DNA of 58,456 bases from Chrysochromulina tobinii (lineage: Eukaryota), in contig JWZX01003199.1 of the NCBI GenBank assembly GCA_001275005.1, forward strand, positions 1-58,456, read 5' to 3'. This document shows, piece by piece, positions 781-23,565 of this stretch (the first letter of the stretch is position 1; each line of letters begins with the position of its first letter). The notes under the pieces are model-generated. The model was not told the origin of the DNA and ran no database searches. It saw only the letters and a list, made by a program, of their open reading frames with translations. The translations under genes were made by a program, and so were the position numbers.

Positions 781-1228
781 GTCTGGAGCAGAGAGCTGCT
801 TCTCGAGACGCTCGATCGCCAGCAAGCAGGCCGTACGCAAACGCACGAACCCTCTCGTCCCGTAGGGGAGAATTTCGCCACTCGAGACTGTCGCAAGACG
901 TGTGATCAACACCCGTCACGCTCAATGGTAGGCCAACGATGACGGTCGAGTGCACAACGATACACTGCACGACCACGCGACACCGAAAACTAAACCCCTC
1001 TCCGTTCCCACTACACATTCACACATGTGACCAGAATCCCTGAGATCTTGCTGGACCTCTAGCGAGCCCACTGAGTAGGTATCAGCTGATTACCTGACTC
1101 ATCTCGCGACAAAACGAGCTCCAAAAGCGAGTTTGTGTGCGCCGCGAAGCAAAGCGCGCGCTCGCAAGACACTTTGCTCGCGCGCTCGAGCTCTCCCCCG
1201 TTCTCGCGGAGCGGATTCTGCCAGGGAT

Positions 1229-4200
1229 ATGGTCCAACACAGTTACGAGTCCTCGCCCGCGACCCCATCGGTAAGCAGGACAGCAGCTTGCGTGATAGCT
1301 CGCGCTGATGATTCTCGAGTGCTTGATTGGTTTTCCATCCTGACCGCCGCTTCGTTGGCTGCGCAGGCTAACCGGCGAGCCGTTCCACTCGACTCATACG
1401 AGGCCTTACGACACGAGTTGTCAGTCCATCTCGAGGAGAACGTGCCGTGGAACGTGCTCATAGCTTGCGTGAAGCTGCTGCCACTGCCACTCGAAGCTCG
1501 CTTCACCGCATCGCAAGCCGAACACCACGCAGCGGATCTCCATGTGCCTTCGGGCGCCAAGGACTGGAGCGATGCCGAGCTGAAAGAGTATTTTGAATCA
1601 GGAGGTATGAAGCTGCCGTCAGATGACCAGTTCTTTAAGATTCTCGGCGGTCATTGGCCAAGCTTGCAGCCTGATGACATCCGGATGTGCGCGCGGACGC
1701 TGTACCGAGCTCGTGCTGAGGGCCGGCTCGAGGAAGCCAAGCCTGCCTCCAGAGACGGCGCCCTTGATGAGCCTGCGGACACACAGGCCCCGCGGCACCC
1801 GGGGAGCGCGGGCGCTGCCTCGAGCTCGACTTCAGTGCCCATGGATCTGGACGAGCTTGACTCGCACGGCACGGCTGTGGACTCGTCCAGGACCCCTGCT
1901 GTGGAGAGCTTCTCAGGTCTGTATGCAACGATGCGTGGCCACGAAGCGTTCCGTCTTGAGGCTTTGGACCACCCCGGCGGCAATGCCGTGGGCCCCCTAT
2001 TCGTAGTCTACGCTGGCGTGCCAACACACGGATTCTTCAAGGGTGAGACTGCGAAAATGCCAACGCTCACTGGAACAGCTACCGGGAAGTGGGAGTATAG
2101 CGATCGCGGTGGACAGTGGAAGGTAAGCTGGCCAGAGAACAAAAATCCCTCCCCAGGCAGTATTGCTGTCGTTCGCGTTGACAAGTTCCGCTCAGCTTCG
2201 GCGAACACCGTCGGCGACGATGTCCGGCTACTATCGAGCGCGGTGAAAGCTCAATTTGGTGCTGTCGCGCTGCTCCTGATCCTCCCCACCGCGCCCACGG
2301 AGGAACAGCGTCTTGATCTCAGCAAGTCTGCTGATAACCTTGCCGTCCCTGTAATGGTCATCCGTGTGGACGACTCAAGAAAGATCACCAACCACGGTGA
2401 CCCGAAGAGCTTAAACGTGTTCCTCGCTGCAGACAAGAGCGCCTTGGCCAACCGGCGCGATACGCGTTGCATCAACGGGCAGCTGCAGTCGCAGCCGCCA
2501 CATCAGCTACTCGAGCAGCAGCAGCAGCAGCAACCGCAGGCCCGAGAAGGATGGAACTTGGTCAGCTTAGGACGCAATATTGTTTCTACCATTGTCAACT
2601 ATGTCTCGAATAAGCCAAAGCTCTCCGATGAGCTCAAAAAGGCGATTAAGGAGGGCGATTTCTCGCGAGTTCAAAATCTCCTCTTGGCATCTGCTGATGA
2701 TTTTCAGATCGACCTGGACACCTCGTGCTCGGTACTGGAGACTACTGCTACGCAGCTCGAAGAGCAGTACCCGTTGCTGCTGGTCTCGGCTCATCTCCTT
2801 CAGTCACGTGCGAAGAACGATAGCGCTAGCGGAGCAGAACGGCGCGCCATCGAGGTCGCATGCACAATTGCAACTAGGTACATCACCAACGGCACCTGGG
2901 TGACTCTTGGCGATCCGCCACTCTCACAAGTGGCATCGGCATCTGACCCCACCTATTGGAGAACCTTTCAAGATGTTGTTCTCTCGATCATCGAGGATGC
3001 GCCTTATTGCCACGACGTCGATGGTCTGGTAAGTTCGGCGCGAGTGCTGAAGCGGTGCTACGAGCTCAAGGCCTGCGACTCTGCGGACGCTCGAGCATTG
3101 TGGTCCAAGGTCCTGCAGAGGGTGATACGCATGCCCAATGGCAAGAGCATCCGCCTCGCGAAGGAGCTTGGAAGCGCGCTCAGCGAGTCCCACGTCGACG
3201 GACATACTGTCCATGCCTTTGATAAATCAGACCATCTCGGTCTCGTGCGAGCCTGGCGTGATGACATTCAGTCCATCGACGACTGCTGGGCGCTGCTCAC
3301 TTGTATTGGGCATCTCACTCAACCATCTCCTCAGGCTGTGCGCGAGTTCGAGGACATCTACGAGTGGGTTGCGCAACAAACGTGTGCGCAGCATGATCCA
3401 GATGTGGGTCCACTGCAACTGATTGACTTTGTTGAACGGCTCAGCCGCGTGCTCCAGCTCGGTTCTAGCCAAGTGGACTTCGCCTTGCAGAAGCTGCTCC
3501 AGGGCATGCTGTCGGCACGCAACGAGCCACGCGTCCATTATCAACGTGCAAACGTTGTCCTCCTCGGGCTTCACAAGCGCTTTCATACTTTTTGCCCGTC
3601 ACTATGGAAGGTTGCAGTCGATACGGTCACGGCTCACGTGCGGAAAACGTTCAAGTCACTTCGCCCCGATCACTTGGGTGAGTGGCTAGTGTCGGACGCC
3701 TATAAGCACGTGCGCGTTCCTCAACTTGACGGTGCCCTGGAAAGGCTTCGAGCATCCAATGACTCGACCGACTTTGATCCGTACCTCAAGCTTAAAGAGT
3801 GCATACGCCAGGCCATGCCGACCACGACTCGTGAGCATGATCTTTCGTCGGGGCTAATTTCCAGCCTGCACACGTGGCTGCGAGCCAAACCGACGAGGCT
3901 TACGTCGGGGTTTGGTGCACTTTTGAACAGTGCACCAGATCCAAATGTGGATGCGAGCTATGTTTTGCAGATAACGGATATCCTCAAGGAGACCAAAGCC
4001 AGCATTCGCGATCGCGATCCGCAGTTTCCACTTCAGCTCGCTCTCGTTCTGAGAGGCGTCACTCGGCTACCAAACCTGCGAAACCTGCTGACGCAAGGGT
4101 TGCTTCATCTCGCGGCTGAGTTCATGTGCCCTTCCACCCTCAACGTGCACGCACCAGGCTATGAGTTCCGTGATGTGATCGAATCCTTGACTCGATTACG

Positions 4201-7200
4201 CACGCCAGAGAGTCTGGCGTGCCGTGGCGTCGCAGCAAATATCCTCATCATATGTATGCAGTCCTTCGTCACCCAGACCGTGACCACCGACAATTGGGTC
4301 ACAGTCATAGCAAATGCCAATCACCGCACGGGCCAGGACTACACTTTCCTCTTTGTTGTCGTAAAGGCTGTCACTAGTGCTCTCGGCCCAGATGGAAATA
4401 TCATGGCGGACCTGGATGAGGAGCGGGCTCTTCTACACGAATTGCATGCATCCTTTGGAAGGCAGTTTGCGAGCGTTTGGGATCAAGTGCGGACTGAGTC
4501 CATCTCTCTTTGTCAACTGAAACAGATCCACCCCAATCTGCAACGAAAGGAGTACGACTTTTCCCAGAAATTGACAGCGCTCTTGCGATTGGAGTCTCCC
4601 CCCGTGGCGCAGCTTGAGCAGCAGATCAGAGATGGTGAGAGCATCCTCGTGTGGATTCTTCAGCAAAAGCAGACGGTGCGATCGATCGAGAAATGGGGCA
4701 TCGATAGGTCGCAGATTAGCGGGATCTTCGACCTCTTTGAGCGTGCTGATTCCAAAGACCACACTCTCACCGACCTTCGGCGCGCAGAAGCCTCGTTAAA
4801 GGCGTGGCTACACCCTCTTGGAGCCCCCGAACGTCAGTTCTTCGAGTACTTCAGTGGATTCGATCAACACGACGACATGGCATCACACCAACGACAGTCG
4901 GTGTTGTTCAGCCATTTCCTGGAGCAGCAGCTTCCGCCTGCCACCGACGGTGCGATTCGCACGACGCAAGCGTTAGCTGATGCGCTACGATCCGTCATCG
5001 AGCTGTTCGAGGCCCTGGTGCAAGGTCGCGGGGAAGTTCGCTTTAGCCAGCTCAGAGCTGCAGGCGAAAGGCTTCGAGAGGCAGGACGTACTCCAGACGC
5101 CGAGCTGCGTGTGATCGCTGGCTTCTTTGGAGAGCAGGCTCTGGTCGCCGATCGCGTTGAAAGCCTTCGATCAGTGCTTCAGCTCGGCCAGATAGTGGGG
5201 CCTCTGCGAAAGCTTGTCGATACGCTTGAGCAGTACACGTTCAGATGCAGTCGTGATGACGTCGCCGATGACACATACCACGTGCTGTGCGGCTACGCTG
5301 ACGGCTTGAGCGATGATCGAGACGAAGGTCTGATGCGCGGGCACTCGATGACGGACTATAATGACTTGCGTGCGAACATCCATCGATCGTTGCGTCCCTC
5401 GGGCGATCGCCGCGGTGCCGAGCAGCAGCGTGTGTCAGACCAAGAGCACGGCGAGGAGCTCGCGCTGCTCACACTGTTTGCGCAGCTCTCTGATCACGAT
5501 CGAGTGTGGCGCTTTGTTCTCGAACGCAAGTTCTTTGGCGGTGGCATGGCGCAATTCAAGGAGAAGCTCGAGCTGTTACAGAACCAAGTGACTGGCGTAG
5601 ATGCCGAACGGCTTCTCAACCAGCTGGAGGGTGCAGTGGCTTACCTCTCAGTCGTTGCAAGCCTACGTGAGCACAGCCTTTCGGAAATCCTTGCCGCGCT
5701 CTGGAGCAGCGAGCAAGTGATGCGCGAGGCCCGCCAGGCTGGGAGCGCTCGCTTTCAACAGCTTCGCGGGCTGCAGGAGCACATGGGCCGCCTTGAGGAG
5801 TGGTTCGATAAGGGTCTCGGCGGGCTCGATGCAGTCTTTGCGCAGTTCTTTTGCGTGCTCGCTACAGGATGCTTCGAATTCCACCTTGCGGACCCTCCCG
5901 GGCTCTGGCTGACTTACACGGATCATGATGTCGAACGCACGCTCAAGTCAGACGAGCTGGTTGACTTTGAACACCGTTTGGGCTTCGTGCAGAACGACGA
6001 CAAAATCACCAACCCCGTGAGTCAAGGCACCGACTACAAGTCCAACAGGTGTGCTCGATTCCTCGAGCGAGTTCAAGAGTATCGCAAGGCGTTCGCACTC
6101 ATGTGCGAGTTGTGCGCACTCGGCCATCCGGAGTACCAGTCCATTCCACGTGCGCCCGTTAATCCGGACGAGGTCTCGCAGCTCTCTGTGCAGCGCTTGA
6201 GCCGGGCTCTGAGCGCATGGAAGCGGAGGTTGGAAGAGGTATCAGCGGTGCACCCGTACTTGCGCTTCTATTCGACACGCGAGGCGCAACGTCTTCATCG
6301 GTTGCTGCTTGAAGGATGGCCATGGATTGCGGCGGATGGTTCAGCACAGGAGCTGACCTTGGCGTTGATTCCACTCTTCCAGCGGTCATCGGGTGTGTTC
6401 TCGCGTCTGCTCGATGTCGTCGAGAAAGCTCGCATCAAGCCTGCTGTCCAAGCTCTTGCAGTTGCTGATGATGATTCTGCTGTCGATGGCCCTGCACAGT
6501 GGCCTGCGATAGTAGGTGCTTTTCTTCAAACCGTTCAGCATGGCATGGGCAGCCCGCCGCTCCCCGTTCGTCCGGCCGGAAGCCCGCTTGTCCACTGGCC
6601 CGGGTTGCACGTGCACACGATCGAGCCGTCCTCTGATGCCATGCTTGCGCTCATCTATCGCATCTATCAGCGCTTACCGGAGCCTTTTGAGGTTCTCTGG
6701 TGCTCTGCGACGACCCATCTGCGAACTTTGGAGACCTTTCTTGACCGCGTTCGGCACCATGCTGCAACGGACACCAGCGCTGGGCGCTGCTTCGTGCTGG
6801 TACAGGTCGAGGCATTGGCACCGACTGCTCAGCAGGCTCTGCTGCGTCACTTGCTTGCCTCACGAGACACGGGTGTGCGCCACAATATGCACTGCTTACA
6901 GAGTGCCAGCACCTCGCTGCAGGCAGCACCATGGATTCGCCATCACAAGGGGACAGCTTCGACTGCGGCTTCCGAGAAAGATCAACTTTCCGGGTCGAGC
7001 TTACGCAAATGGGTCGTGGACGGCATGGACTTTAGAGCGGTCACATGCGTCATGGGCCCTTCAGGGAGCGGCAAGACCCATTGGATCAGGAAACGTATCC
7101 TGCAATGGATGCAAGAAGACGAGGCCCGCGCCGTATGCGTGTTCAGCATCACGGAGGCTTTCTCGCTTGAAGCCGTCTCGCAGAAGCTGCAGAGGACCAT

Positions 7201-10200
7201 CTTGAAGGAAGGCAGCTCGACTCAGCTTGCACTGTGCTTCCATCTCAACATGGGCAAATTCCGGACGTACGAGATGCATGAGTGGAAGGCACTCATGGAA
7301 AAGATCAATCGCTTCTTCTTCAGTCTGCTCGTTCTTCGCAGCGTCGAGGATTCCACTGGATTCGTCTTCAACGTACCGCCGGGCAGCCGCTGGGAAGTAA
7401 TCGTAGAGATTCCCGATCGGATCGGCCATCTTGATGAGGCTCCGGCAGACACACTGAGCCAGGATGATGGTTTATGGAAGGAGCTACCTGTGCTTGCTTC
7501 GATTGGCACGTTGCAAAGACCTGCCGATGCATTCGATCTCGATGGAGAAAATACTCGCCTCGTGTGCAAGTACCTCAAGGCATATCAAGACGGAACGATC
7601 GATGAGTTGTACACCTCAAATGGAGGCGGCTATGGCGGGCCCAAGGACGTGATCTTCGTCCTCGACGCGTCAGGCAGCATGGCGGGCGCCCCTTTTGAAA
7701 CCTGCCGTCGATGCCTTCTTGAACTCTGCAGAGGAAAGCTTCAACCTGTGGATCGTGTTGGCGTTGTCGTGTTCAACGGCAGGATCCTCTTAAACGTTCA
7801 GCCAGCGCCGTTGAGTGCCCGGCACCTGGCAAACATCGAGACCCAGTTGGTATTCGTCCAGCCGAGTGGTGGCACAGATTTGTGGGGCGCCATGTTCGAT
7901 GCTGCTGACCTTCTATGCTCGCTTCCTGATCGAAATCCGAGTTGGATGGTCAGCCTGACGGACGGCCATTCCGAAGGTGAAAACATGCAAGCGTGTACAG
8001 AACGCCTTCGCAAGCTCGATGCCTCCAACATCAACGTGCTCTCAATTACGATCAACCTTCAAGACTCTAGTCGTGATCTCATCCGACGCGTATGCGTCGA
8101 CGGTCGCATCGGTACGAATGAGATTGTTCCTGCAGATGGTGGCCTGGAGGCGATCGAGGAAGCGTGGGCTGTCGTCGGCGAGGCCATGACCGTGAGTGAG
8201 AGGGTTGAGCTAGCAGAGGTGACGGATGCTGAATGCCACGCTCTTCTTTCACACTACATGCTGCTACCTCAGAAAAGATGGTCCATGCTCAAGCAGTCTT
8301 ACTGGGTGCGTTACCTCGCGCGCCGATGCCACATCCTTCGCACGTCTGAGAAGTTCAACATGAACGATGGCTTCGAGCGATTCGGCAGCTCAACTTTGAA
8401 GATAATGATGGAAGAGGCGCATCATGCCCTGAGTGATGACTATCGCCACGACTGGGATGCAATCAATCACGAGCAATTCGTGTATTGGGAGGAAAATGGT
8501 GACTCGAAGTGGAGCCTGATCGCAACGAAGCCAAGCGAGATGAGTGTGGAGCGTAGGCAACTTCTCGACGAGCTCGAGCTTCACGTGCCATCTGCTGACG
8601 ATCTTCGCAAGCGCCGCGTGCTCGACAGTCTCCTTGCACGGGGCCTCGGCATCGATGCCGTGCTTCAAGATCGCGCCTTAGAGAGGCGACAGCGCCCGAT
8701 CGTGCGTGATGGCCAGCAATCGACGATAGACGTTGAGATCAATCTTGGGACTATCGCCGCTGTTGATGAGCACCGCTTTGTCCTGACTCTCGACTTTACG
8801 ATGAAGATGCTTTGTATGCACGAACGCATAGAATGCCGTGTGCCTTGCATTATGGAGGGCGAGACGGGTGTGAGCAAGACAGCGCTTACGCGAATGTACT
8901 TCATCCTCAAGAATCTGTCGAGCATGAGCGCGCAGATGCAAGATGTTGATAACCCGCGACTGCGAGTCACTGTGGACCAATTGCGCAATCTGGCAGCCGC
9001 TCAGCAGCCTCAGGATGCCGCCGTCGCCTTCGGGGAGATCCAGGTGGACCCGGTTGTCCGCACTCTGCAGAGTATGGCCCTGAGCCTCTTTTCCTTCTTC
9101 CTCCCTGACGCCGGCTTCCGGTCTGTGCCGCAAGAGGTCTGGAATGACGCTAAACGTCTCGCGACCTATCTTTGTGATAGTGCAGTGGACGGGTCTGCTG
9201 CGGTCAACATTCCGCCGTTTCGTGCCGCGCTCTTGATAGAGCTCAAGCAGGATCCGGGGCTCCTAGTCGACAACGGCTTGTGGCAGGCGGTGCAGACGGC
9301 GTGGAGCCCTGCCTGGCAAGATCCGATCAATGAGCGCTCAGCCGGTGACATTAGCGCCGAAGTGCTTGCTGATCTGCTGCTGTGCTACATCCGCGCAAAG
9401 ACTTCGCTGATGAGCAGCCCTGTTGGCTGGACTTTCCATCAGCTCAATGTGCACGCTGCACTCACACCTGCCGCCATTGAGACGGACCTCGCACCAATCA
9501 TCGAGCTTGGCTTCCGGCTGCAGACGGCTGCTGAGTTGCTTAACTCGCCCCGCCATCGCAACGTCAAACTTTGCATCTTCCTCGACGAAGTGAATACGAG
9601 TAGCACTATGGGCGTGTTCAAAGAGCTCATCGTCGACCGTAGGCTTGACGGTGTCGATTTGCCTGAAAACATCGTTGTCATCGCTGCGTGCAATCCAGCG
9701 CGTGAGAAGCTTGTGCATTTTTCCGCAGCGAACGCACGTCGCGAGGAGCTTGGTAAGGAATGGGCAATGGGCCACTACCAGGTTCACCCACTGCCGCTCT
9801 CGATCGAGCAGGTGACCTGGGACTACGGATCACTTAAGGCAGAGCAGGAAGCGGAGTTCATTGAGAAGCGGATGAGTGCGCTATATCGAGGCGAAGACGT
9901 GCGCTTCCCTTATCCCGAGCAACGTCAGCTTGCTGCACTAATGTGTCGCTCGCAAGATCTGACACGCGCCTTTGCACAGCAGCAGTTTGCTGGCCTGAAG
10001 GAGCGCATAATTGCCGCCTCGCCGCGACCACTCTCGACTGCTGAGCTCCAGCGCATGGATGCCGACCTCAACGCGCGCGCGAGCTCAGTCGTCTCTCTGC
10101 GAGACATCCAACGCGTGTTCGCGCTGTTCCGATTCTTCGACAATTTGCTGCAGACGCACAATGGCGAAGCTCATTTCTTCATGGAGGGCGGTGACGATCC

Positions 10201-13200
10201 TGCAAGTGCCCCCGAGCGTCGTCGCCGGTCCATGCTTCTCACAATCGGTGTGGTGTATTACCTGCGCCTCTCAACGGAGCAACGCGTTAGCTTCGAGTGC
10301 GACTTGCATCAGATGCTCCGAGATGAGCACAACTTACGGCTAGATAAAGTACTGACCGAGGCCATGGATGCGCTTATTCAGACAACCGAGCTTGAGCAGG
10401 GTATCGCACGTACCACAGGTCTCAAGGAAAACGTATTCATGGTCGTCGTGTGCACCTTGGCACGCATTCCTCTCATGATTGTACGTGCAGGCCACTTCCC
10501 TCTCCCACCGCCCCACGCCATGTGGATGGTTGCCGACTCACAGCTCTCCGCCTTCCGCAGATTGGTCCACCGGGATCCTCTAAGACACTGGCCGTCACCG
10601 TCGTGACTCAGAATGCGAAGGGCGACCAATCCAAGGCCCGGTCATTCTACCGGACGCAAAAGCGGCTTCTCAGCTTCCATTATCAGTGTAGCCGTCGCAG
10701 CACGAGCACGGAGATCGAAGCCGTGTTCAAACGAGCCGAGGACAAGCAGCAAATGACACACGGTGATACCTCGTGCTTTGTCTTCATGGACGAGGCCGGT
10801 TTACCCGAGGAGCAGCGCGAAAGCCTCAAGGTTCTTCACTACTACCTCGAAGATCACATGTCTAGGCCAGCCAAAGTCGGCTTTGTTGCCATCACCAACC
10901 ACGCACTCGACGCGGCCAAATCGAATCGCTGCGCAATTCTTCTGCGCGCGGAGCCTGACCATCGCGAGCTCATGCAGATCTGCATTGGCGGCCTCGGCTC
11001 CGAGGCAGAACAGCGGCGCCTACTCGCACAGACTGTAGTTGGCCTCGACGAGCGCCTCCCCGATGTGCTCGACAGACTCTGTTTAGCGTACCAGGATCTA
11101 ATGCGCGAGGAGCGGGAGCTCGCGTGGTTCAACACGTTCTTTGGCCTGCGTGACTTCATGCACGTCATCAGGCTGCTCGCGCGCCTGTCCAGTGGCTCTA
11201 CGATCAGCCTCGGAACCATTGTCCACGCGCTAGAGCGCAACATGAGTGGCGTAGAGGAGGCCGATCAGCTTCAGCTCATCAATTTCTGGCGTCGCCGTCT
11301 TGGTGCCGGTGACAAGCTTCGCATGGCCGAGCTCCGTAATCCATACACGCTGCTCCGCGAGAGCCTATCCGAGCAGGCACAAGCTGAGCGGCCGATAAGC
11401 CGCTACAAGCTCCTGATCGACACAACGGCCGATGATTCCATCCTTCGACTTCTGCATGCGCGGCGTGACCTCGACGTGAGTACGGACGAACACCGTGGTT
11501 CGATCATCCTCAAACTCAGTGACTTCCGTGAGGACACTAGCCTGCAGCAGGTGACGCTCGTGAGCAGCGTCAAAACAGCAGCTGAGAAGGGAGAGGTTGT
11601 TGTGCTCTCGCACACTGAACCCGTCAACGAGAGCTTTTACGATCTATTCAACCAGCATTTTCAACGGCAAGAAGACAGGCACGCGCGAGCACTCGTGAGT
11701 TTGACCGTCTCGCCAGGGGGTATTAGGATGGACATCACCGTCGGTCATGTTGCTGTCAACTCTTATCACGCCAACATAGCCGTGGGCTCGCATTCCAAAC
11801 TGTGCCGCGTCCATCAGTCGTTCCAGAGTGTGGTTCATATGCGCCTCTCCGAGCTTCGCTATGCGCCCGCCCCTTTCCTCCATCGCTTCGAGAAGTACCG
11901 ACTCTCGCATCGCAATCTGCTCGATGCGCACGTTGCGGAATATCCGAGTCGGTTCCGCAGTTTTGTCTCCAAGGTGCTCGCCAAGCTACACAGCCTTGTG
12001 GAGTGCATTGAATCGCTCAGTCTCTACGGGTACAAGGCGCAGCAAACGCTCGAGTCAATCCTCCTATATTCGGTGTCCACCCTGGGGAGCAACTTCTGCA
12101 ACGTCTTGACGCCCGCGTTTGCGACCTCGATCGCATCTGCAGCTGCAGCTGAGCTCCAGGCTGATCCAGAGGCGCTCGCGCTCCTGCAAGATGGTGTGCA
12201 GGAAATCGGCGAATCTGTTCGAGAGGCGATGCACTTCCTCCTGTCGTCCAATGAGTCAGGATCTGCAACGTCGCGGTTGGCTGTTGCGATCACTGGCCAG
12301 TGGCTGCTGCAGACTTCAGTGTCACGGCTGATCCAAGTGTGCACACCTGAAAGGCTCTACAAGCACCGCGCCGTTGTCCCCTTTGAGATGCTCGACACGT
12401 ACTTCAGGTGCCAGGAGCACTTTTCGCTGAAGCGGCTGCTGCAAGGCATGGTGAGCACACGTACTGCACAGAGGATGGTTGTCTACACGCGCACAACTGC
12501 GTCGCTATTATCCCTGCCGGCCCATGGCCTCGAGAGCTCAGAGGACGAGAGCTCAGCTTCGGAAATGCATCTGCTTGAGGCCCTCATTTGTGAGCCGTTC
12601 AGCCTTGAACTTCCTGATGGCGAAAACGAGATCATTACCCTGGCTGATTTTTCCCTCTGCCCACTGTCGCTGCTTACCACGCAAGAGGCTCTCCTGGCAT
12701 GCCTTCGCTCCTTCCGAAGCGCTGCAAGCTCAAAACGAGTACTCTTATTCTTCATCGATATGGCGGAGACGCCCACGAGCCGCGTAAATTTTGTTCGAAG
12801 TAAGGTGGACGAGCTCTGTAGCGATATGGCTTCCAACAAGTCCATCGTGGTTATCATGCATTTCCCTGCATCGAATGTCTATGTGCTGCCATGCTACGAC
12901 ACAACATTCTGTGATCAGTGGCAACCTGTGTTCCTGGACTCCATCAGCGAAGAGGCCAGTGCACTCGGTGCCCTCGACGTGAGAGAGTGGCTTAAGCTCG
13001 GCGCGTCCAATGACTACCAATCGCTCGTTGATGTAAAAGCGTGGGACCTCATGCCCGCTCTCCAGGGCTGGCTGAATACTGCGCTGACGACTGCTGCGAG
13101 CCGCATTGAGTATGCACGGGGGTGGAATGGGCAAAGTCCTGGAGACTTCAATCCAATGCAGCCAGTGCCCGTCCAAGCCCGCGTGAAGCTTCTGGAGGCT

Positions 13201-16200
13201 CTCATGTTGAAGAAGCTGAAAGACCCCCAAAACGGTGTTGAGAAGACAATCGAGCAGGTGCTGTGCACACGCTATTCGATGCTTTGGACCGACGGAGATC
13301 ATCTTATGATCAGGGATCGGGTGCAGTCCGCAACGCAGCTCCTCGCCTCTGGGCAGCTGCGTGTTTCTCTTGTGGAGGCAATCACTGGCGAGGTGCGAGA
13401 GGCTTTCTGCAATTATCTCACCCTCATGATCTGCAAGATGAACGAGCAGCTTAACTTGGACTTGCTCGACGAGATCTCGCTTTCAACGCTGGATCCTCAC
13501 GTCCAGGGTGTATTTCTTCGCTGCCTCACGCTGTTGCCCATCCCGCCCATTCCCGAGCTCAAGCTGCTCACTCAGCCGCGCCGCATTGTCGTCACAAGCC
13601 CACCTCCTCAAGCAAACTCGATGTTTCCGTTCTTTCACCTCGTCTCGGCGCTCTTTAGCCAGGCGACGGGTGAAGTGTTTGCAACTGCGGAGGGCCACAG
13701 TCTCTCTGAGAGGCACGCCGCAGCTGCAGTCGAAGATAAAATCAAAACATCCGATTCGCCACTTGCAGAAGTGGTTCGTTGGATGGCTGGTATTGACGTC
13801 ACATGCGAGCTTCCAGAAGAGCTGTGGAAGCGTTATGTGGCTCATTTTGTAAGCAAGCTGTGCTGTGGCTCGCCAATCGTTGAGCAGCGGATGGTGATTG
13901 CTTGGCTGCGCAACCGCTGCTACAGCATCGATGCAAAGCGGCCAGTGATTGCACTGCATATTGCAGCGCATCGTAACGAGGAGATGATCAAAGGCTTGGC
14001 TGCCATGCTTCGGCCGCTGAGTGTGCTCATGGAAAGCATGGGAGCAACGTCATCAGCGATGATGGAGGCGAAAATGGAAGATTTGGGGGATGCCGCCGCA
14101 ACTCGAGAGGTCGCCGCGAGTTTGCACGCCGCCATCGTGCAGGAGTTCTACAGGCAGATGGATCTTGCTGTTGCCAGCTCTGAGCAGGACCCTCAGCAGG
14201 CAGTCAAGTGGGCCAACGCATTTGGGTTGGTCGAGCTTCGTGACTTAGTCGTCGATAGCCAGGGTTCAAATATCCCCGAGAGCGCAACGAGCCTGCTCGT
14301 GATGAGCGTAGTGCACGCTGCTGCCAAAAGTGTCCGGGAGGGCGACGATTGCGCTTCCTTACGCCGTTTCGCCCAAGAGGCCAAGCTCGCCATCAATGCT
14401 CAACTGCGCCTCGAGAGCGTTTGGCGCATCACACAGCGGATCTATCCGGATCGAACGGGACTGATGCAGCGCATTTTGAAGCTTTGGTGCAGCACGGCTC
14501 AGTTTGAGTGCTCGCCGCTCAAGCCTGAGGTGCGCTCTGATGTGGGATTCTTGCTGAATACCCTTGTTCATGAGCACCAGCTACCCGAGACATTACGCAC
14601 TTATGTTGTCGAGTCCTTACTCTCGAACTCGCGGCTTGTCGGCACTCTGTGCGACTACAACGTCATGGAGCGTGATGCCGACTCGAGCAGCAGCGCCGAA
14701 GTGCTTGAGCTACTTGAGAGCCATCTCGTCGATCAGCTCGCAACAAGTCCTATTGCTGAAAGCTGGGAATGCGCGTATGTGCCCCCGTGGTTCAAGCAGG
14801 AGGGTGCGAAGCTCGATCGACCCGTCGCACACGCGTACTTCACTGTTGTACTCAAGCAACTGCTTGCCCAGCGGTCAGGAAAGCTTGAGGAGTCCATTGG
14901 CCTATACTGCAGCCTGAAGTCACAGCTCGATGGAATGATAGAAAGCCGCAGTCGTGCTGCGACGACTGTCTCTGTACGGCAAGCGCGTCTCCGAAAGTTG
15001 GAGCGTAAAGGGCCGTTGCGAGTGCCTCACTTGCGTGCTATCACCCTTGCTGCCTGCAAGCTCTTGGTGGTGCTTGACCTAGGCTCACGGCTCGCGGCTA
15101 CTGCTCGGCACGATCGCGATCCAGCGGAACCGTTGCTAGAAGGTCCAGAAGCGCAATTGATGAGCGAAGCGCCCTCACTGCAGCTCCAGGCACTTGTGGA
15201 GAGCCATCCGGACTGGGGGCATGAGCTCATGAATGCTTTAGCAGGAGAGGTCCGCAGCCGCGAGACGATGATCAAGTTCTTACGCGCACACGGCCGGCGG
15301 CTTTTACCTGCGGTCCTGAGCCAATGGTCCGAAATACCGGCGGCTGCAGAGGAGTGCGTCGGTCGGCATGCCAAGTTGGCATTTGCATTCGACCCTGACA
15401 ATGTGCTCCACACCACATACTGCTCACTAGCGGAATCAATGACTGACCGCGATTTGCTCATTGCGAAGGTCCGAGCGTTGTGCAGTGCGAGCGCGGGCGT
15501 GGACAGACACAGGCTCGACGTGATCATGATGATGTTCGCTGCAATCTATTACGAACGCAGCACAATCAACAATCATGCGGTCATGAGTGCGCTGGATGCG
15601 CTGCAGAACGAGTTAAAGTTGTCCCCAAGTGCAATGCGAGTCTTCCGTGGCTTTCTCCAGCCTGAAACTCTCATTGCTTTTCAGGAGCCCGGTATGCCGA
15701 GCGATACGCTATATGATCTGCTGAAGGCACCACCGGCGGAGCTTCAAAGCCGAGAGGATCGTGAACTGCAGTCGTGCATCATCGGCATGATCGCCCTCAC
15801 CCTCGGATCCAACGAAGCCACAACCCACCTTGCTACGCACATCCTCCAGCCAGACCGGCTTGTCAACACTTTTGGCGTTGGGAGCCAATACTCACAAGCG
15901 ATCGGGTCAGTCCATTACGACTGTGGGTGTGAGCTTACGTTTGATGGCGACGTTCCCGCGAATCGTCCGCGACGCGAACCGCTCGACCGCCACTCACGCT
16001 ACTTCGTCCTTTGGTCGTCCTTTGCGGCGCTGGGCGTGAGCTTGGTCACACAGCCGGAGTCGCAGCACACCATGCGTCGTGTGCTTTCGCTTCCGGGGCA
16101 GGGCCTTCGCGCAGGCGTCCTCAGCTTTTGTAAGGCGCCATGGCATCATTTGGGCGTGAAGCTTCAGCTCAACGCTGAGAGCCAGTGCCAGCTCGTCCTC

Positions 16201-19200
16201 CGTGCACTCGAGCATCACCGCGAGAGCTCGTTCCAAAGCCATCGCGGGTATGCCAACGTTTTCCACAGCATTCCAGCAGTGCAGATGTATGAACGCCAGA
16301 TGATGATCTCATTCCATCATGCTCGTCAGCGTCTGCCGGACTACATCGCCCTCCTTCGCCGCCGCGAGGCCGCGTCTCAGCTCTCGAGCCGACTCGACGA
16401 CTTCATCATAGAGCACCCGCCTCTGCACGTGGCAGTCCGTCCCTCAGTGCCACCCATCACGCCCAGCGTCATCTTTGAGGATGAACTCGAGCTTGTAGTC
16501 GGTAGGGACCCTACAGGAACGCGTGAATTGGCCATGCTACTCACCTTTACGCGCAAGTGCCGTCATTTGCGCTTCCTGTGGGTGCTCCCTGACTTGATCG
16601 AGTTCTACCAATTCCTGCACGTGCAGCTCGAGTACATCCTGCTTGAAGAGCAGGCCAAGCAGAAAAGCATTGGTGCGCTGCTCGAGTCGATGGCGACAAA
16701 GCGCGGTAATGAAGGCACCCGAACGCGCTTTAGCCAGAACGACGCGCGCCGCATCACCCAGCTTTGGCTTCGTGTAAAGATGGGCTTCAATCAGTTCGTG
16801 GCTGAAAATCAAGCCATCGGTGTTGGGGCGTGCGCTGCGAATCAAGAGGCTGCGGCTGCAAATGCGGCGGCACATGCGCAAGCTGCACTAGAAGCTGTCG
16901 AAGCGACCGTTGGAGGGGACGTTCATCGAGTAGCCGAGGCTGCAACGGCGGCTGCAGCTGCAGCTGCAGCTGCCCGCGCTGCTGAACAGCGGCTGACTCG
17001 AATCTCGCCTTTGGACGATTCTCATCCTATATGGCGTTTCCTGAGCACGAATGAGGATGAACTGTTCGACGACGGCGGCGTCCGCTTCAATGGCCAGGTG
17101 TTAACTTGCGACAGCCTGTTCCTTGTCATTAAGCGCATGGTTGCGATGCACAATGATTTGGTATTGGAGCTTTCCGAGCACGGTCTGGCGACTGCTCACG
17201 ACAAGAAGCCGATCAAACCGCTTGAGCTCAACACGGCAAGCGTTGCACTTGGCGACGTGCGACCTTGGGACCTGCACCTCGGCGTCGATGAAAGCAAGAG
17301 CCTCGCTCAGCAGACAGCGCAGATGGAGAGGCACTTGAAGGAGAGCCTGCTTCATTTGGATCACGCTGGAAGCTTTGCCAAGTTGGTGCAGCTCCACTGG
17401 CAACGTCAAAGCCAAACGTCAAAGACACCGTTTGATTTCGATGCTATCCGCCGAGAGGTGAATGGCCTCTACCTCGATCGGCTTGCAATAATTGAGGACC
17501 CGTCTGCCCACTTGCGCCGTGTATTTCGATTTCGACGGACGTCAGCAGGCAACGAGGCTGCCTCAGGAGACGAGGCGCTTGCTACAGCAGTTCGGTTGCA
17601 AAGCGACCTTACGCGTTTGCAGCACGCCCTGAGTGCCTCGCACACGCTAGGTGACGAGGAGACAAACGGCATGCATATCCTATACTTCCGCATGTTTCAC
17701 TCGCTCGAGCATGACCAGGTGGCCAAGCTGCTTCGTGGGCTTGACATGGTCGCCACCATTTGGATTCGAGCCGTCTCGGCTGGCGCTCATGATGAAGACG
17801 CAACGATTCGGACGCAACTCGGTGAAATGTTTCCAGATGTCAAGAGTGACGCCGAGCTACTGCAGCGCGTGCACATTGAGCTCTACGAGGAAGAGCAGTG
17901 CAACACCCTCCTGCAGGTGCGGTTCACGCAGCTCTCATTGTTGCTGAACTACCTTCGCATCTACCTTTCGTCGCAGGACTACATCTTCGCTCGCCTGCCC
18001 TTTGTGCTTAAGGCGCGGTGGGACGACGATGTCATCGTGACCCTCAATACGATCGAGCGCACGTACGACACAGACCGCTCGAATGACCGCTTACCTCTCT
18101 CTGCGGCGGCTGCGCAGCTCGAGTCAGGCATCGTTGACTACGAGCAGGTCTTCAGCTCCGAACCGGAGACGCCGCTGCATAGATTCATGGTCAACTGGGC
18201 AGGGAGCGAGCAAGCGCTGTACGAAGAGCTGCCACTGATGCGCGAGTTGCCCAAGAGAATTGCGCTGCAGCACTACGTCGAGCTGCGTAAGCTCCTGCAC
18301 CGCTGGTCGCATAGGCCTGTGACAGCGGCACCGATCGCGGAGAAGTGGGCATGGCCCTTAATATTCAACTCGCAGAAAGTTGCCAAGCCGGCAGCGACCG
18401 TTGAGCCGTCTGAGGACATTGCATCTCGCTGGGTTCTCTGGTTTGAGGACGGCGATGACCTTATAGATGCCAACACGGCAGGACAAGTAAGAGAGGTGCT
18501 GGACGAAATCATCAGCGCGCTGGCGTCAGAGGATCGCCGCATGAAGAAGCTCGAGATGAACGCCATACGTTGCCAGTTCCGCTGGCGCTATGTGCTCGGC
18601 TGTCGAAGGCGAAGGGCCGAGAAGGCTGTGGCGCAAGCAGCACTGGAGGCGGCACACTCTGCTTTCGAAAAGCTCAGAGGTGCAACTGACAAAGAGCTTC
18701 CAAGTGCGATTGCAGCTGCTAGGCCGCATGTCAGTGCGTTTGCTGAGCTGGCGGAGCTCCTACTGCAAAAGCAGGCTCGGATGGCAGAGATCAATCGCAA
18801 TTTGTCGGAGGCACGAATGAAGACGATGCGATGGTATGTACGAGTATTGGCTACTGCTGTGGGCTTCTTGATTTTGGCGATGGTCATTCCGTTGCTCATA
18901 AGCTCTGGCGACGCTGCGCTGGATTCGACGAGCCATCCTGAGCTTGAGAGCGCCACGCAGCAGGGGATCTCTATTGCTCGACTGACAGCATCGGATGATT
19001 TCCAGCTCGACTCCATCATCGAAGGCTTTGACGCAAGATTGGAAAAAGCATCCATGGAGATGAGCCATGGCCTTGATGCTGAAGAGAGCGGACCGCCTTT
19101 GGCAACTCCAGAGGTTGAGGGGCCTACTACTCAGTTGGCAGGGCCGACGGCACAGTCGATGCTGCAGCAGACGGACGCCACGGACGCAACGAGTTTGCTT

Positions 19201-19494
19201 CGCATTTTCGGGTTGATCGTGGGGCAAGGATGTGCATGGTGGTTTGTATGGAATAAGTTTTGTAACGAACGGCATGGCGATGCCCCGAAGTCGATGCTGC
19301 GACAGCTGACAAGCGTGGTGTTCATCCTTTTGCTGCTTCTCGGAGCATGGTGGTCCGTTTCGAGCGTGGTCCGCTGGGACGATCGCAAGAGTGTTCGTGA
19401 TCGCTTGAGTCACCTCGTTTCGCTCAGGGAGGCTGGACTGGTGACTGAGGAATACTATCTCGAACGTGAGAGGGAGCTCCTGCAAATGATCTGA
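1229..19494 (+). CDS. RNF213: Giant RNF213/mysterin-like AAA+ ATPase, join(1229..1270,1367..10480,10561..19494), ~6029 aa
   Basis: ORFs 1133..10606 and 10450..19494 join in frame across intron 10481-10560, giving RIPLMI|IGPPGSSKT. A colinear series of RNF213-type motifs is present: MGPSGSGKT; FVLTLDFTMKMLCMHERIECRVPCIMEGETGVSKT; FLDEVNT; IAACNP; YQVHPLP...WDYGSL; VSLRDIQR; YQCS; FMDEAGL; GFVAITNHALDAAKSNR; FFGLRDF; PFLHRFEKY; LPDLIEFYQFLH. The symbol means family-level similarity, not proven orthology. Confidence 0.88.
1271..1366 (+). other. Probable intron 1 of the RNF213-like gene (96 nt, in frame, no stop codon)
   Basis: GTAAGC donor at 1271, CTGAC branch motif near 1340, GCGCAG acceptor ending at 1366. 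Because it is 3n and stop-free, retention cannot be excluded. Confidence 0.65.
10481..10560 (+). other. Intron 2 of the RNF213-like gene (80 nt)
   Basis: GTACGT donor and CCTTCCGCAG acceptor. Removal restores the frame immediately before Walker A GPPGSSKT. Confidence 0.92.
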
Positions 19495-20147
19495 GCCAGT
19501 CATCGGGGCGGATCGAGCGTGTGCCCGTGGGCTGTGGCATGTTGAAGAGATGCCGTGCGCGCATGACCATGAGCCGTGATCGTGCAAAGGCCGAGGCGCG
19601 CGCGCGCGCGCGCGTCAAGTGTGTACTCCTGTAATTGGTATTGCTAGTGAGGTCTCTGACACTCTCTGAACTCCAAGTGGTCAACGCATCGCATGGCGTG
19701 GGGTCAGCGGGTTTTCCCTGCCGCGCCGCCCCCCTCGCGGTGCACCCACGGATTCCCACGCTTGCCGTCGGTGAGCGCCGCAGTACAGTGCCGACCATCT
19801 CGTGTCGCCCCGTTTTCACACACACACACACATGTACCGACCTGATGCGGGCGAGCTCCAGAGCTCTCCCAGTCCAACTAGGAATCCGGGATCTACCTGT
19901 GACGCCTGACGCCCCGCTGATGAGCCAACACCACACCGCTCCACATCACACTCGACACTCGACACAGGGCGGACGCGATTCCGTTCTATCTGCGACGTGC
20001 CACGCAGCGCGCACTCCATCTCACATCATGCGTCATCTGGTCACACACGGCAATGCAGTGTAGCGCTCACCACAGCGCCACGACACGTGCGCCGGCGCCG
20101 GTTGGCGGCGCAACGCGCCTCTTGCCGCAGCCGGCTGGATTTAGAAT

Positions 20148-20963
20148 TTAGAAGCCGTAGGCGTCGCCGCCAAGGACCACGTCGCCGCCGAGCACGGCCT
20201 CCGAAGTCATACGCTGGTTGATCGAGTGCGGCACAACGCCCGCGGTCATCGGGAACTCGACCGGCGCGGTGTTGACGATGCGCACGACGTTGCCCGAGCC
20301 CGGCGTCTCGAGGATGCAGAAAAAGGGCCGGTCGAGGCCATCCTCGGTGTACAGCTCGATCACCTGCTTGTTGTTGTTCGGGCCCTGCAGCAGCTCGATG
20401 CGCGCGTTGAGCGGGCGGCCGTCGGTCTTCAGAAGAACCTCAATGCTGTCCACAGTCGGATCGAAGGGGTACGTGCGCAGGGCACCACCCTGGATGGTGG
20501 CGGACGCGGCAATGCACTCAGCCGACGGGTTGTCAACCTGATCGGCGATGACGTTGGCAGCGATCGGGAACTCGATCTGGCCAATGTTGCGGATGGCAAC
20601 GGTGTTGGGGCCGCGGGGGGTCTCAATCGTCGCGCAGAAGGGACGCAGCTGGCCATTCTCCACATACACGCGCATCTTGCACGGCGTGTTGTCGGGCCCG
20701 TGCCAGAGCTCGATGTCGGCATCGAGCGGACGGCCCTCAGTGCTGAGCACGACCTGCACCTGCTCCACCGCCGGGGAGCGGTACGACCAGGTGCGAAGCG
20801 AGCCGCCCTGGATGAGGATGGCCGAATCGGCCGACGGAGGCATACGGGTGGGCACCACGCCACCAGTGTAGCCAGTGTAGGAGCCCGGGGGCGCGCTGAC
20901 GCCGTATTGCATCATCGGGGTGCCCATGCGGAGGCCAACGGTGCCAATCATGGTTGCGAGCAT
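20148..20963 (-). CDS. Algal protein of unknown function with an internally duplicated domain (~271 aa)
   Basis: ATG at 20963 (MLATMIG...). Two homologous halves: IQGGSLRTW...TEGRPLDADIELWHGPDN and IQGGALRTY...TDGRPLNARIELLQGPNN. Strong GC3 codon bias. Confidence 0.85.
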   Translation of the reverse strand: MLATMIGTVGLRMGTPMMQYGVSAPPGSYTGYTGGVVPTRMPPSADSAILIQGGSLRTWSYRSPAVEQVQVVLSTEGRPLDADIELWHGPDNTPCKMRVYVENGQLRPFCATIETPRGPNTVAIRNIGQIEFPIAANVIADQVDNPSAECIAASATIQGGALRTYPFDPTVDSIEVLLKTDGRPLNARIELLQGPNNNKQVIELYTEDGLDRPFFCILETPGSGNVVRIVNTAPVEFPMTAGVVPHSINQRMTSEAVLGGDVVLGGDAYGF

Positions 20964-21668
20964 GTCGAAGGCTTCGTGAGAAGGGGTTCGTGTCCGGCGA
21001 GGAATCCTCATCGAAGGAGATCGAAGCTCCAAAAGGATCCTCAATTCCATCCTGCAACCCAGCATAACACAACCGTCCTGCTCATTTTCGGAGCCGTGCC
21101 GGGGCATGCCGGTCCGTCGCTCGAGACCTGTGCCAGCTGCATAACTCTTGTCACTTGTGTGAACCGCGTCCGACACATAAGAAACCCCACGCGTTACAAG
21201 TATAGTATGAAGGAACCCGCGGCCGCGCGCGCGCGCGCGCTGCGCGTAGAGAGTCCGACCCCAAAGCGGACCGTGCAACCATGCAAGATGCATTGCACCA
21301 AGCACGCCCGCCGATGGCCCATGCCAGGCAGGACGCTCCAGCTGCCGGCCCCAAGATGTCAGTGACTCTCACCCCATCGCGCGGGTCTCCACTCTCCACA
21401 TGCGCACATGACTTGGTCGGGCAACTATAGGTTGATCAGACAGCCTTCAAACTGCGCTCCGCTCCATCAGTCTTAATTACTTGCTCCATCATGCCGTGTT
21501 CGTTTACATGTATTGGGATGTCCGTCACAATCTGCTGCGAGATTGCGATCTGCCCTTTCGAACTTGCGCTTTCACCTGCCGTTACCTCAAGCCAGATCCA
21601 CGCCGTCCTGAGCACTTATCCATGCAAGGCTGTTCACGCCCGGTAAGGCCGTTCACGCCCGGTAAGGC

Positions 21669-23300
21669 TCACCAAGCGAGCTGCTTGTGCCTCACCCTGA
21701 TGAGTTGATTGCCCAGGCACGCTTGCATCGCCTCACACAAGGATGCCAGCGGGGCATGGCCATACGTCAACAAGTTATGCTCGCCTGCGCTCAAGAGGGA
21801 AGGAGCATACTCGCCCGTACCGGTCGCATACTGCCAAGCGTTGAAGGCCGAGTTTGCCTTTCGGTACTTGAACTTCGCGACTCCCTCGGAGAGCATCTGG
21901 ACCATCTTTCGACTCGTCAGCCAGTAATCCACAAACTTGTTGAAGCCTGCGGCGAGCTTGCGATGCAGCATGTGGCCCATGCTAGCCTGGAGCAGGTGCA
22001 GATTCCTGGCGCGGCTCTCGGCGAACAAGAGCCACGAGTTCCACCCCTTGGCCAGTTGCTGCTGGGGCAGTCGCCTCAGCGCCTGGCGGCAGATTTCGTC
22101 GATTCGCTCCGCGCGCTCCTTGCGTGCGCGGCTGCTGTCGCTCATGTCGCCCTCGGGGCTGCTCGGGGGTGTCATCTCATCGACAGTTATTTCGAGCAGG
22201 GGCATGCTGGGCTGAACGTAACCCTCGAGCTCAGCATACTGCTGTCGCACGATCCTCGCCTTCGTGGCAGCCCTCGTGCGGCAATGCTTCATGCTTGTGG
22301 TCTGCGCATCGCGCTCGTGCCGTAGCTCATCGCCCTTCTTCTGCATCGCCTTGAGGGCTGCCGTGCATTCCTTGGCATCGAGCCTTCCGCTGCCGTCCGC
22401 GTCGATCACGTGAAAGAGCTCAGCGGCCTGCATGTGTGCGGAGGCGTCGAGTAACAGCCCACTGACCATATTTAGAAAGTCGCCCTTCGTCAGACCTTCC
22501 GAGCTGCTCGCAAACTGACCCACAAAGTCCGCCGCTTTGATGCGCCGGCGCGTGCAAGCGATGCCGAGCTGCACCTCCAGATCCGCCTCCATCTCGCGCT
22601 TCAGCCGCGTAAGCTCCGCCTCCCGCCGGTTGGCATCTTCCTCGAGGCCTTCTCCCTCGGCCGCGATGACGGCGATCTCGCGCAGCCTGGTAGCTTTGGC
22701 TGACTGGAGTTTGCGCACCTCAGCCTGTTCCTTCTGAATCGCAACAGCAACAGACTTCAAATCGACCAAGATCGTTTTGAGCTCGTTCGAGCTGATCACG
22801 CCCGACTTGTCTTTGTCATGAGAGTCGAAGAACGCGTCGATCTCCTTTGTTTCGAGATCGAAAGGTTCCTTGGGCCGGTGCTTTGCAAAGAGCGCTTTGA
22901 TGCGCAAGCGAAACTCGGTCTTCAGCACGCTGCCGCTGTTTGTTGGGTCCCACGCCCGGAGCTGTGCCGGTACATCGACATTCGCTTCAGCAAGAAGCTC
23001 ACGCAGCTGCACCGCCACCCCCTGCTTGCGAGGCTTGTTGTCGCCCTCTAGCGCTTCGGCCTCGGCTATGAGCTCGCTTGAACTCAGCTTCGTGACCACC
23101 GTGATTGCAGGTGCAGCCTTGCGAACGTTCTGGAGCCCGGCGAACGTGCCTCGGATGGGAACCACAGCCGGGGGAGAGTAGGCACCCAAGGGGGCTTCCC
23201 CTTGTGGTTTGAAAGAGCGCAGCTTGGCAGATTTTTTGAAATAGCGATGGCTTTGGCGCGGCGTCCAGATGTGAGGAGCGGCTGCAGTCGGCGAAGGCAT
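21669..23300 (-). CDS. EF-hand and coiled-coil protein with Sfi1-like Trp repeats (543 aa)
   Basis: EF-hand loops DKDKSGVISSNE and DADGSGRLDAKE. C-terminal repeats LAKGWNSW / LAAGFNKF / AFNAWQ. Confidence 0.8.
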   Translation of the reverse strand: MPSPTAAAPHIWTPRQSHRYFKKSAKLRSFKPQGEAPLGAYSPPAVVPIRGTFAGLQNVRKAAPAITVVTKLSSSELIAEAEALEGDNKPRKQGVAVQLRELLAEANVDVPAQLRAWDPTNSGSVLKTEFRLRIKALFAKHRPKEPFDLETKEIDAFFDSHDKDKSGVISSNELKTILVDLKSVAVAIQKEQAEVRKLQSAKATRLREIAVIAAEGEGLEEDANRREAELTRLKREMEADLEVQLGIACTRRRIKAADFVGQFASSSEGLTKGDFLNMVSGLLLDASAHMQAAELFHVIDADGSGRLDAKECTAALKAMQKKGDELRHERDAQTTSMKHCRTRAATKARIVRQQYAELEGYVQPSMPLLEITVDEMTPPSSPEGDMSDSSRARKERAERIDEICRQALRRLPQQQLAKGWNSWLLFAESRARNLHLLQASMGHMLHRKLAAGFNKFVDYWLTSRKMVQMLSEGVAKFKYRKANSAFNAWQYATGTGEYAPSLLSAGEHNLLTYGHAPLASLCEAMQACLGNQLIRVRHKQLAW

Positions 23301-23565
23301 TGAGCCTAGCGACGCCCGATTCCTAGTCTGCTTTCGCGATGCCGATCCTCTGCTCCTCTGTGCCGATCCTCTCCTGGATGCCTCGTGCGTCGGTCATCGG
23401 AGCACACGAGGAATCCAAGAGTTTCAAGTCTCAATTTCGCGGCCAATTTTACAAGAACTTTGATTACGAGCGTAGGGTGCGCGATCCGTCGTCCGTGTCG
23501 ACCGACTCGTCGCGTGTGTGGGTACCATCCTGACACACACTGATGAGACAGCAAGCATCTCGGTC

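What the first reader, a model, noticed from the sequence alone, without database searches (positions are those of the whole stretch)
18550..19494. C-terminal IQ-like helix, three TM helices and a SHOCT-like tail on an RNF213-like protein
Seen in the same open frame: NAIRCQFRWRYVLGCRR (IQ-like); hydrophobic segments at ~18832-18900, ~19195-19251 and ~19306-19371; terminal RDRLSHLVSLREAGLVTEEYYLERERELL. Established: SHOCT has the pattern L-x-x-L-x-x-x-G-x-(I/L)-(T/S)-E-E-E-(F/Y) and often terminates membrane proteins. Inference: the ATPase is tethered to an organelle or vacuole membrane and may oligomerise, unlike soluble animal RNF213.
Basis: partly seen in the sequence, partly recalled or inferred. 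Interest (0 to 1): 0.7.

Follow-up and report, generated by a model that had tools for sequence, protein, structure and literature searches.

The report
Membrane-anchored algal RNF213-like motor
An alga makes a 6,029-residue relative of the human immune enzyme RNF213 that lacks RNF213's two ubiquitin-transfer zinc fingers and ends in an extra tail predicted to anchor it in a membrane and possibly bind calmodulin, a tail type that recurs in diatoms and other algae.

Summary
The tail is real. One spliced RNA contig covers the whole 6,029-codon gene including the tail. All 6 RNA runs laid cross unspliced the intron that the public model (KOO23374.1, Chrysochromulina tobinii) uses to drop the last helix and the SHOCT-like end. 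Vertebrate RNF213 ends where the tail begins (HH-align 97.6%). Two helices are strongly hydrophobic; the middle one is marginal, lineage-specific and probably a local duplication. Relatives with the same end have 1, 2 or 3 helices. The IQ is degenerate here but canonical-looking in diatom and pelagophyte relatives, many of which also end in a membrane helix. The last 34 residues are SHOCT-like but fail the Pfam cut-off, and the SHOCT paper's own test found no oligomerisation. RING and RZ fingers are absent; a MIDAS-vWA domain sits in the AAA ring. Best reading: a membrane-tethered AAA+/vWA remodelling motor, probably not an RNF213-type ligase. The scan met RNF213-like protist genes before, but not this tail. 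New variant of a known kind.

The parts
1229..19494 (+). Whole gene, 3 exons, 6,029 aa, RNF213-family AAA+ protein
   Evidence: first in-frame ATG 1229, stop 19492-19494; one RNA contig of 18,307 nt covers 1149-19631 with two joints
1271..1366 (+). Intron 1, 96 nt, GT..AG, in frame (kept as coding in the public model)
   Evidence: Joint in 4 of 4 RNA runs
10481..10560 (+). Intron 2, 80 nt, GT..AG, joins the two long open frames just before the AAA4 Walker A
   Evidence: 4 of 4 runs
7055..7078 (+). Walker A, by position the AAA2-like site
   Evidence: assignment by order relative to RNF213 (PMC7311170), inferred
7646..8071 (+). vWA domain with intact DxSxS MIDAS start, inserted in the AAA ring; no counterpart in vertebrate RNF213
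   Evidence: Pfam VWA E=9.5e-9, above cut-off; tile 2001-2500 matches 0 of 21 vertebrate proteins
8858..9589 (+). AAA3-like unit: Walker A (8858-8881) and Walker B (9572-9589)
10564..10794 (+). AAA4-like unit: Walker A (10564-10587) and Walker B (10777-10794)
   Evidence: RNF213 chains E about 1e-24
15913..15930 (+). HYDCGC, short remnant at the place of the RZ finger
   Evidence: HH-align; the DCG cysteine is kept in 24 of 30 covering relatives
18247..18309 (+). Last helix of the RNF213-type C-terminal domain; vertebrate RNF213 ends about 10 residues later
18427..18450 (+). Conserved xWxLWFE motif that opens the tail
18553..18612 (+). Degenerate IQ-like helix (CQ in place of IQ)
   Evidence: helical in model
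18604..18831 (+). About 75-residue Ala-rich helical spacer
   Evidence: (pLDDT 74-88)
18832..18900 (+). TM1, strong, basic residues before it (predicted N-in)
   Evidence: a hydrophobic segment at this place in 9 of 9 full tails (KD 1.30-2.76; 7 of 9 at 1.6 or more)
18901..19191 (+). Acidic, low-complexity, poorly conserved loop, predicted disordered and luminal
19192..19251 (+). Marginal hydrophobic segment (TM2), probably a local duplication of the TM3 block
   Evidence: 6 of 5000 protein shuffles, 107 of 5000 codon shuffles; in 2 of 9 tails, the second 94% identical
19306..19371 (+). TM3, strong; equivalent helix in 6 of 9 full tails
19390..19491 (+). SHOCT-like / GvpG-like two-helix end, the best conserved part of the tail

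Best explanation
This expressed gene encodes an RNF213-family ATPase without RING or RZ finger whose extra C-terminal tail is predicted to insert into a membrane, likely holding the motor on the cytosolic face as a tethered remodelling machine. Shown: transcript, domain order, loss of the fingers, hydrophobic helices, recurrence in relatives. Inferred: TM1 acts as an internal signal-anchor with the 5,800-residue body in the cytosol; the two complete ATPase sites and the MIDAS-vWA domain grip and remodel a target, as AAA+/vWA pairs do (established for MoxR/VWA and Mdn1; seen as listings); the IQ-like helix between body and anchor is a calmodulin or EF-hand docking site in the family, weakened or lost in this copy; the SHOCT-like hairpin binds the membrane surface or a partner and does not build the ring, which is a single chain. 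The tail gives by sequence the membrane address that animal RNF213 reaches by recruitment to vacuoles. A defence or membrane-surveillance role is an inference from kinship only. Odds per step: membrane-bound 0.85; not an RNF213-type ligase 0.75; calmodulin binds this copy 0.4.
For: Spliced contig through the tail; no joint in the tail in 6 of 6 RNA runs. Top two hydrophobic windows of the protein lie in the tail. K/R-rich flank before TM1 in 9 of 9 tails (3-7 K/R in 15 residues). No hydrophobic N-terminus. Among 35 non-vertebrate relatives with a recognisable CTD end, 10 tails have a window with summed insertion scale <=0, against 1 of 231 body windows. IQxxW[RK]-type motif 16 times in 6,699 tail residues against 3 in 105,844 elsewhere. 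Named carriers of IQ plus TM: Seminavis robusta (P0063, P0089) and Chrysophaeum taylorii (P0056). RZ ligands and catalytic cysteine missing in the alignment; Pfam finds RING and RZ in a lizard RNF213 control but not here.
Against: No dedicated TM predictor was available; hydropathy scales were recalled values. Helix number varies (1 in P0007, P0009, P0010; 2 in P0005, P0006, P0008, L005; 3 in the window and P0004), so the conserved SHOCT-like end would face different sides if all helices span; this is unexplained. The IQ pattern is absent in 4 of 9 SHOCT-type tails, and Pfam IQ was hit by none of the relatives scanned. My IQ pattern allowed C after I had seen the window's sequence. 19 of 35 tails have no helix at KD 1.6 in the first 400 residues. 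The 35 include near-duplicates and kin. Structure models were poor overall (pLDDT 51.7 and 47.3) and gave no fold match.
Confidence: 0.62

Rival explanations
1. The protein is a membrane-anchored ubiquitin ligase after all: a conserved cysteine in the YDCG remnant (or the GAC motif) replaces the RZ nucleophile, or a separate RING/RBR partner supplies catalysis.
For: The E3-core and CTD scaffold are kept end to end. Cysteines are conserved in 24 of 30 (DCG) and 32 of 35 (GAC) covering relatives. One relative has a weak IBR-like hit (P0077, E=0.012).
Against: The DCG cysteine aligns with a zinc ligand, not the nucleophile (with PMC11549300, PMC12075652). The vertebrate E2-docking motif, whose W5097A and E5108R changes abolish activity (PMC12075652), is not seen in the window or its group, though alignment confidence there is low. 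No Pfam family in the two upstream frames.
Confidence: 0.2
2. The hydrophobic segments do not cross a bilayer but dip into one leaflet or a lipid-droplet monolayer, so the whole tail stays cytosolic whatever the helix number.
For: It would explain 1, 2 or 3 helices before an unchanged end. SHOCT-like domains are proposed to bind the inner leaflet (PMC11237479). Animal RNF213 is linked to lipid droplets (title in a reference list; not read).
Against: TM1 is an ordinary 19-23-residue helix with basic residues on one side and an acidic loop on the other, and no central proline. Diatom relatives end in plain tail-anchor-like helices.
Confidence: 0.14
3. The tail is not part of the main protein: it is spliced as in the public model, or is a chance extension.
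For: KOO23374.1 drops TM3 and the SHOCT-like end through a 209-nt intron near 19219-19427. Contigs hide rare isoforms.
Against: 6 of 6 RNA runs cross that stretch unspliced, one in a contig that lacks both true introns. The dropped end is the best conserved part in relatives.
Confidence: 0.03

Closest known systems
Vertebrate RNF213 / mysterin (PDB 6TAX, 7OIK, 8S24; PMC7311170, PMC12075652, PMC11549300)
   Same: Stalk-side region, dynein-like AAA core with three Walker A and two Walker B sites in the same order, E3-core and CTD scaffold to the last helix.
   Different: No RING, RZ collapsed, E2-docking motif not recognisable, vWA inserted in the ring, 393 extra residues with IQ-like helix, membrane helices and SHOCT-like end; residues 1-800 have no match in my set.
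SHOCT domain (Pfam PF09851; PMC3581485) and GvpG C-terminus (PF05120)
   Same: About 30 residues, two helices, conserved Gly and Glu, no indels, at the very C-terminus after a membrane helix.
   Different: Below both Pfam cut-offs; family consensus is [ST]E[QEH]NY instead of EEE[FY] (the latter recalled); carried by a giant eukaryotic ATPase.
IQ / IQ-like calmodulin-binding motif (definition recalled)
   Same: Helical [hydrophobic]-Q-x-x-W-R with basic residues after it, at a fixed place in the family.
   Different: CQ instead of IQ and no G-x-x-x-R half in the window; binding untested.
AAA+/vWA remodellers (MoxR-VWA pairs, midasin/Mdn1)
   Same: AAA+ ring plus MIDAS-type vWA domain.
   Different: Here the vWA lies inside a single-chain RNF213-type ring and the protein has a membrane tail; known only from search listings.

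Membership tests
RNF213 family | Dynein-like AAA core with catalytic AAA3 and AAA4 and ATP-binding AAA2 | tested here: met
   Walker motifs present; arginine fingers and sensors not checked
RNF213 family | E3-core and CTD scaffold | tested here: met
   HH-align 97.6%, E=3.2e-12, 717 columns
RNF213 E3 ligase | RZ finger with four zinc ligands and catalytic cysteine | tested here: not met
   control hit
RNF213 E3 ligase | RING finger | tested here: not met
   control hit
RNF213 E3 ligase | E2-docking residues of the CTD | tested here: inconclusive
   Not conserved in the alignment, but column confidence is 1-4
RNF213 E3 ligase | N-terminal CBM20 | tested here: inconclusive
   No Pfam or profile match; model too poor
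SHOCT (PF09851) | Score above the Pfam cut-off | tested here: not met
   0 of 10 tail-bearing proteins pass; 1 of 10 (P0010) hits at 16.5 bits against 27
SHOCT (PF09851) | About 30 aa, two helices, conserved Gly and Glu, no indels, within 50 aa of the C-terminus | tested here: met
   Gly invariant in 8 of 8; helix-turn-helix, pLDDT 67-82
IQ motif | Full consensus [FILV]QxxxRGxxxR | tested here: not met
IQ-like motif | First half of the motif at a conserved place | tested here: met
   degenerate in the window
IQ-like motif | Binds calmodulin | not testable with these tools
Integral membrane protein | Spanning helices and topology | tested here: inconclusive
   Hydropathy and flank charge support TM1 and TM3; TM2 and sidedness open

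The most novel reading that the evidence does not exclude
Haptophytes, diatoms and pelagophytes share an undescribed branch of RNF213-type motors that are integral membrane proteins gated by calcium/calmodulin through an IQ helix and that act through a MIDAS-vWA grip instead of ubiquitin transfer; the RNF213 scaffold would then be an old membrane-surveillance machine with a swappable addressing tail (TM, SAM, extra AAA), of which the soluble animal ligase is one version.
Probability: 0.3. Interest if true: 0.75.

Novelty: new variant of a known kind. Interest (0 to 1): 0.55.

Why it matters
What RNF213's ATPase ring does mechanically, and how it finds membranes, is open. A natural version with no ubiquitin fingers, a built-in vWA grip and a hard-wired membrane anchor separates the motor from the ligase and marks the target membrane directly; the diatom relatives make this testable in algae. 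It also corrects a public record: the model lacks the conserved end and the name 'E3 ligase' is unsupported. No paper on this turned up (RNF213 + haptophyte, 0 papers; RNF213 + MoxR, 0; listings without such a description); subscription papers and supplements were not searched.

Tried and rejected
No whole genome was held, so copy number in this organism is unknown. ESM Atlas gave no usable hit for the tail and only a 0.76 lead for the N-terminal domain. The tail model (pLDDT 51.7) gave no fold match. A PA-domain reading of 2150-2370, recalled from its look, was not confirmed: no Pfam hit, model pLDDT 47.3, no Foldseek match at E<=0.001. Direct phmmer of the post-AAA region against PDB found nothing; only profile-profile comparison did. 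The 39-sequence alignment A3 was too scattered to fold. The complex predictor was not available, so self-association of the SHOCT-like end stays untested. P0011 (repeat protein) was dropped as spurious; P0012 and P0013 are fragments and were left out of helix counts; L004 equals P0005; members of the window's own cluster and duplicate members were left out before counts. The tree kept 100 of 120 segments (16 vertebrate and 4 short ones dropped) and is FastTree only. X15 and X17 were of unknown kind and fragmentary. The EF-hand neighbour gene was not taken as a partner: adjacency alone is no evidence.

Full report
Gene and transcript. Two long open frames, 1079-10606 and 10396-19494, overlap. 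An 80-nt GT..AG intron at 10481-10560 joins them just before the last Walker A. RNA contigs confirm it and a second, in-frame 96-nt intron at 1271-1366 in 4 of 4 runs; one contig of 18,307 nt covers 1149-19631 with only these two joints. The protein is 6,029 residues. Two more RNA runs cover the tail in one piece. In 5 of 6 RNA runs a single contig spans IQ-like helix to stop; the sixth shows pieces 14079-18669 and 18920-19644. These are short-read contigs, not long-read cDNA, rare isoforms would be missed, and five of the six runs may be one campaign. The protein's cluster holds KOO23374.1 of Chrysochromulina tobinii, named 'e3 ubiquitin-protein ligase rnf213'. That model leaves the frame inside the middle hydrophobic segment through a 209-nt intron and loses TM3 and the SHOCT-like end; 6 of 6 RNA runs cross the stretch unspliced. 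Base 19453 is A in 7 of 7 covering runs and 3 of 3 other assemblies, giving EENY, as in relatives.

The body. The AAA core matches solved RNF213 chains (E about 1e-24 and 1e-20). Three Walker A and two Walker B motifs lie in RNF213's order, where only AAA3 and AAA4 are catalytic and AAA2 binds ATP (PMC7311170, passages). A vWA domain with an intact DxSxS lies between the first and second Walker A; vWA is common among the nearest relatives and absent from vertebrate RNF213. A profile of 51 non-vertebrate sequences aligns with vertebrate E3-core plus CTD over 717 columns at 97.6%. In it the RZ finger is collapsed to HYDCGC: three of four zinc ligands and the nucleophile named in PMC11549300 and PMC12075652 (passages) have no counterpart. 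Pfam finds RING and RZ in a lizard control but not here. The E2-docking motif of the CTD is not recognisable, at low alignment confidence. Vertebrate RNF213 ends about ten residues after the helix at 18247-18309, so the last 393 residues are an addition.

Membrane helices. TM1 and TM3 are the two most hydrophobic windows of the protein; TM2 ranks eighth. Two windows of that strength arose in 0 of 2000 tail shuffles. Searches gave nine full tails with the same opening motif and the same end, from 94% identical down to about 30%. All nine have a hydrophobic segment at TM1 preceded by 3-7 K/R (7 of 9 at KD 1.6 or more), then an acidic, unconserved loop. Six have a helix just before the end; three have none. 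TM2 occurs only in the window and its 94% relative, and its block resembles the TM3 block (6 of 5000 protein shuffles and 107 of 5000 codon shuffles reach the score), so it is probably a recent duplication. If all helices span, the conserved end faces the cytosol in four tails and the lumen in five. I cannot explain that. Only the window's cluster among the nine is named, so restriction to haptophytes is not shown.

IQ-like helix. The window fails strict and IQ-like patterns and Pfam. But relatives found through the AAA core (120 of 156 listed) carry IQxxWR at the same place, after the same LWF motif. Of 35 non-vertebrate proteins with a recognisable CTD end, 16 have the motif in the next 200 residues: 16 in 6,699 residues against 3 in 105,844 elsewhere (the pattern was widened to allow C). 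A matrix from 11 relatives without the SHOCT-like end ranks the window's site first (11.8, next 2.3). Four of nine SHOCT-type tails lack the pattern. Pfam IQ hit none of the relatives scanned. So the site is a real, inherited IQ-like motif that is decaying in this lineage; calmodulin binding is untested.

SHOCT-like end. It is the best conserved part and models as two helices with a turn at Gly-Leu. It meets the paper's description (PMC3581485, parts 1-2 of 4 read) but 0 of 10 proteins pass the Pfam cut-off; all ten give sub-threshold GvpG hits. PMC11237479 (passages) proposes that SHOCT-like domains hold cargo at the inner leaflet.

Family view. In a FastTree of the AAA4 region the window sits in a branch (support 0.98) with stramenopile, Pavlovales, Strigomonas and unnamed proteins, apart from sponge and vertebrate branches. 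Tails in the wider group vary: IQ plus TM (Seminavis, Chrysophaeum, several unnamed), TM alone (Ochromonas label), SAM-like ends, extra AAA units. Strong insertion windows occur in 10 of 35 tails against 1 of 231 body windows; 19 of 35 tails have none at KD 1.6; 0 of 21 vertebrate proteins reach 1.6 in their last 400 residues. These counts include kin and near-duplicates and are not independent events.

Mechanism and verdict. The best reading is a membrane-tethered, single-chain AAA+/vWA motor with its body in the cytosol, an inherited calmodulin-type site near the anchor and a small membrane-side hairpin at the end; ligase activity of the RNF213 type is unlikely, though conserved cysteines keep a rival open. 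It works like RNF213 in its motor and is a member of the family by scaffold, but fails two defining ligase features. Ten literature searches showed no description of such a tail; listings only were seen except for the five papers named. Earlier scan notes describe other RNF213-like protist and fungal genes, including a fungal tail with an ER-docking motif, but not this tail. New variant of a known kind; interest 0.55.

Noticed in passing
window 7646-8071: MIDAS-type vWA domain inserted inside the RNF213-type AAA ring, shared with many protist relatives.
   Followed up: partly
window 15913-15930 and 16816-16833: Two conserved cysteines in the E3-core/CTD scaffold (DCG 24 of 30, GAC 32 of 35) in a group without RZ finger that includes sponge proteins.
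   Followed up: partly
window 2080-2370: Small alpha/beta domain near the N-terminus, where animal RNF213 has its CBM20 sensor; unidentified.
   Followed up: partly
window 20148-21368 (-): Neighbouring gene of the diatom pyrenoid shell family (Pfam DiatomPyrShell, E=9e-88).
   Followed up: no
window 21669-23393 (-): EF-hand and coiled-coil protein two genes downstream.
   Followed up: no
window 160-1018 (-): Expressed upstream region, head to head with the giant gene; two open frames without Pfam family.
   Followed up: partly
window 2514-2539 and 5543-5562: In two RNA runs a contig matches short pieces here and runs on unlike the window, possibly a paralogue or chance.
   Followed up: no
window 2357, 16551, 18124, 19453: Four bases differ from the window in all four RNA runs; 18124 and 19453 change residues. 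Possibly assembly errors or alleles.
   Followed up: partly
P0018 (public model) against window 1229-10480: The public model keeps intron 1 and removes two coding stretches of 26 and 29 residues that RNA contigs cover unspliced.
   Followed up: yes
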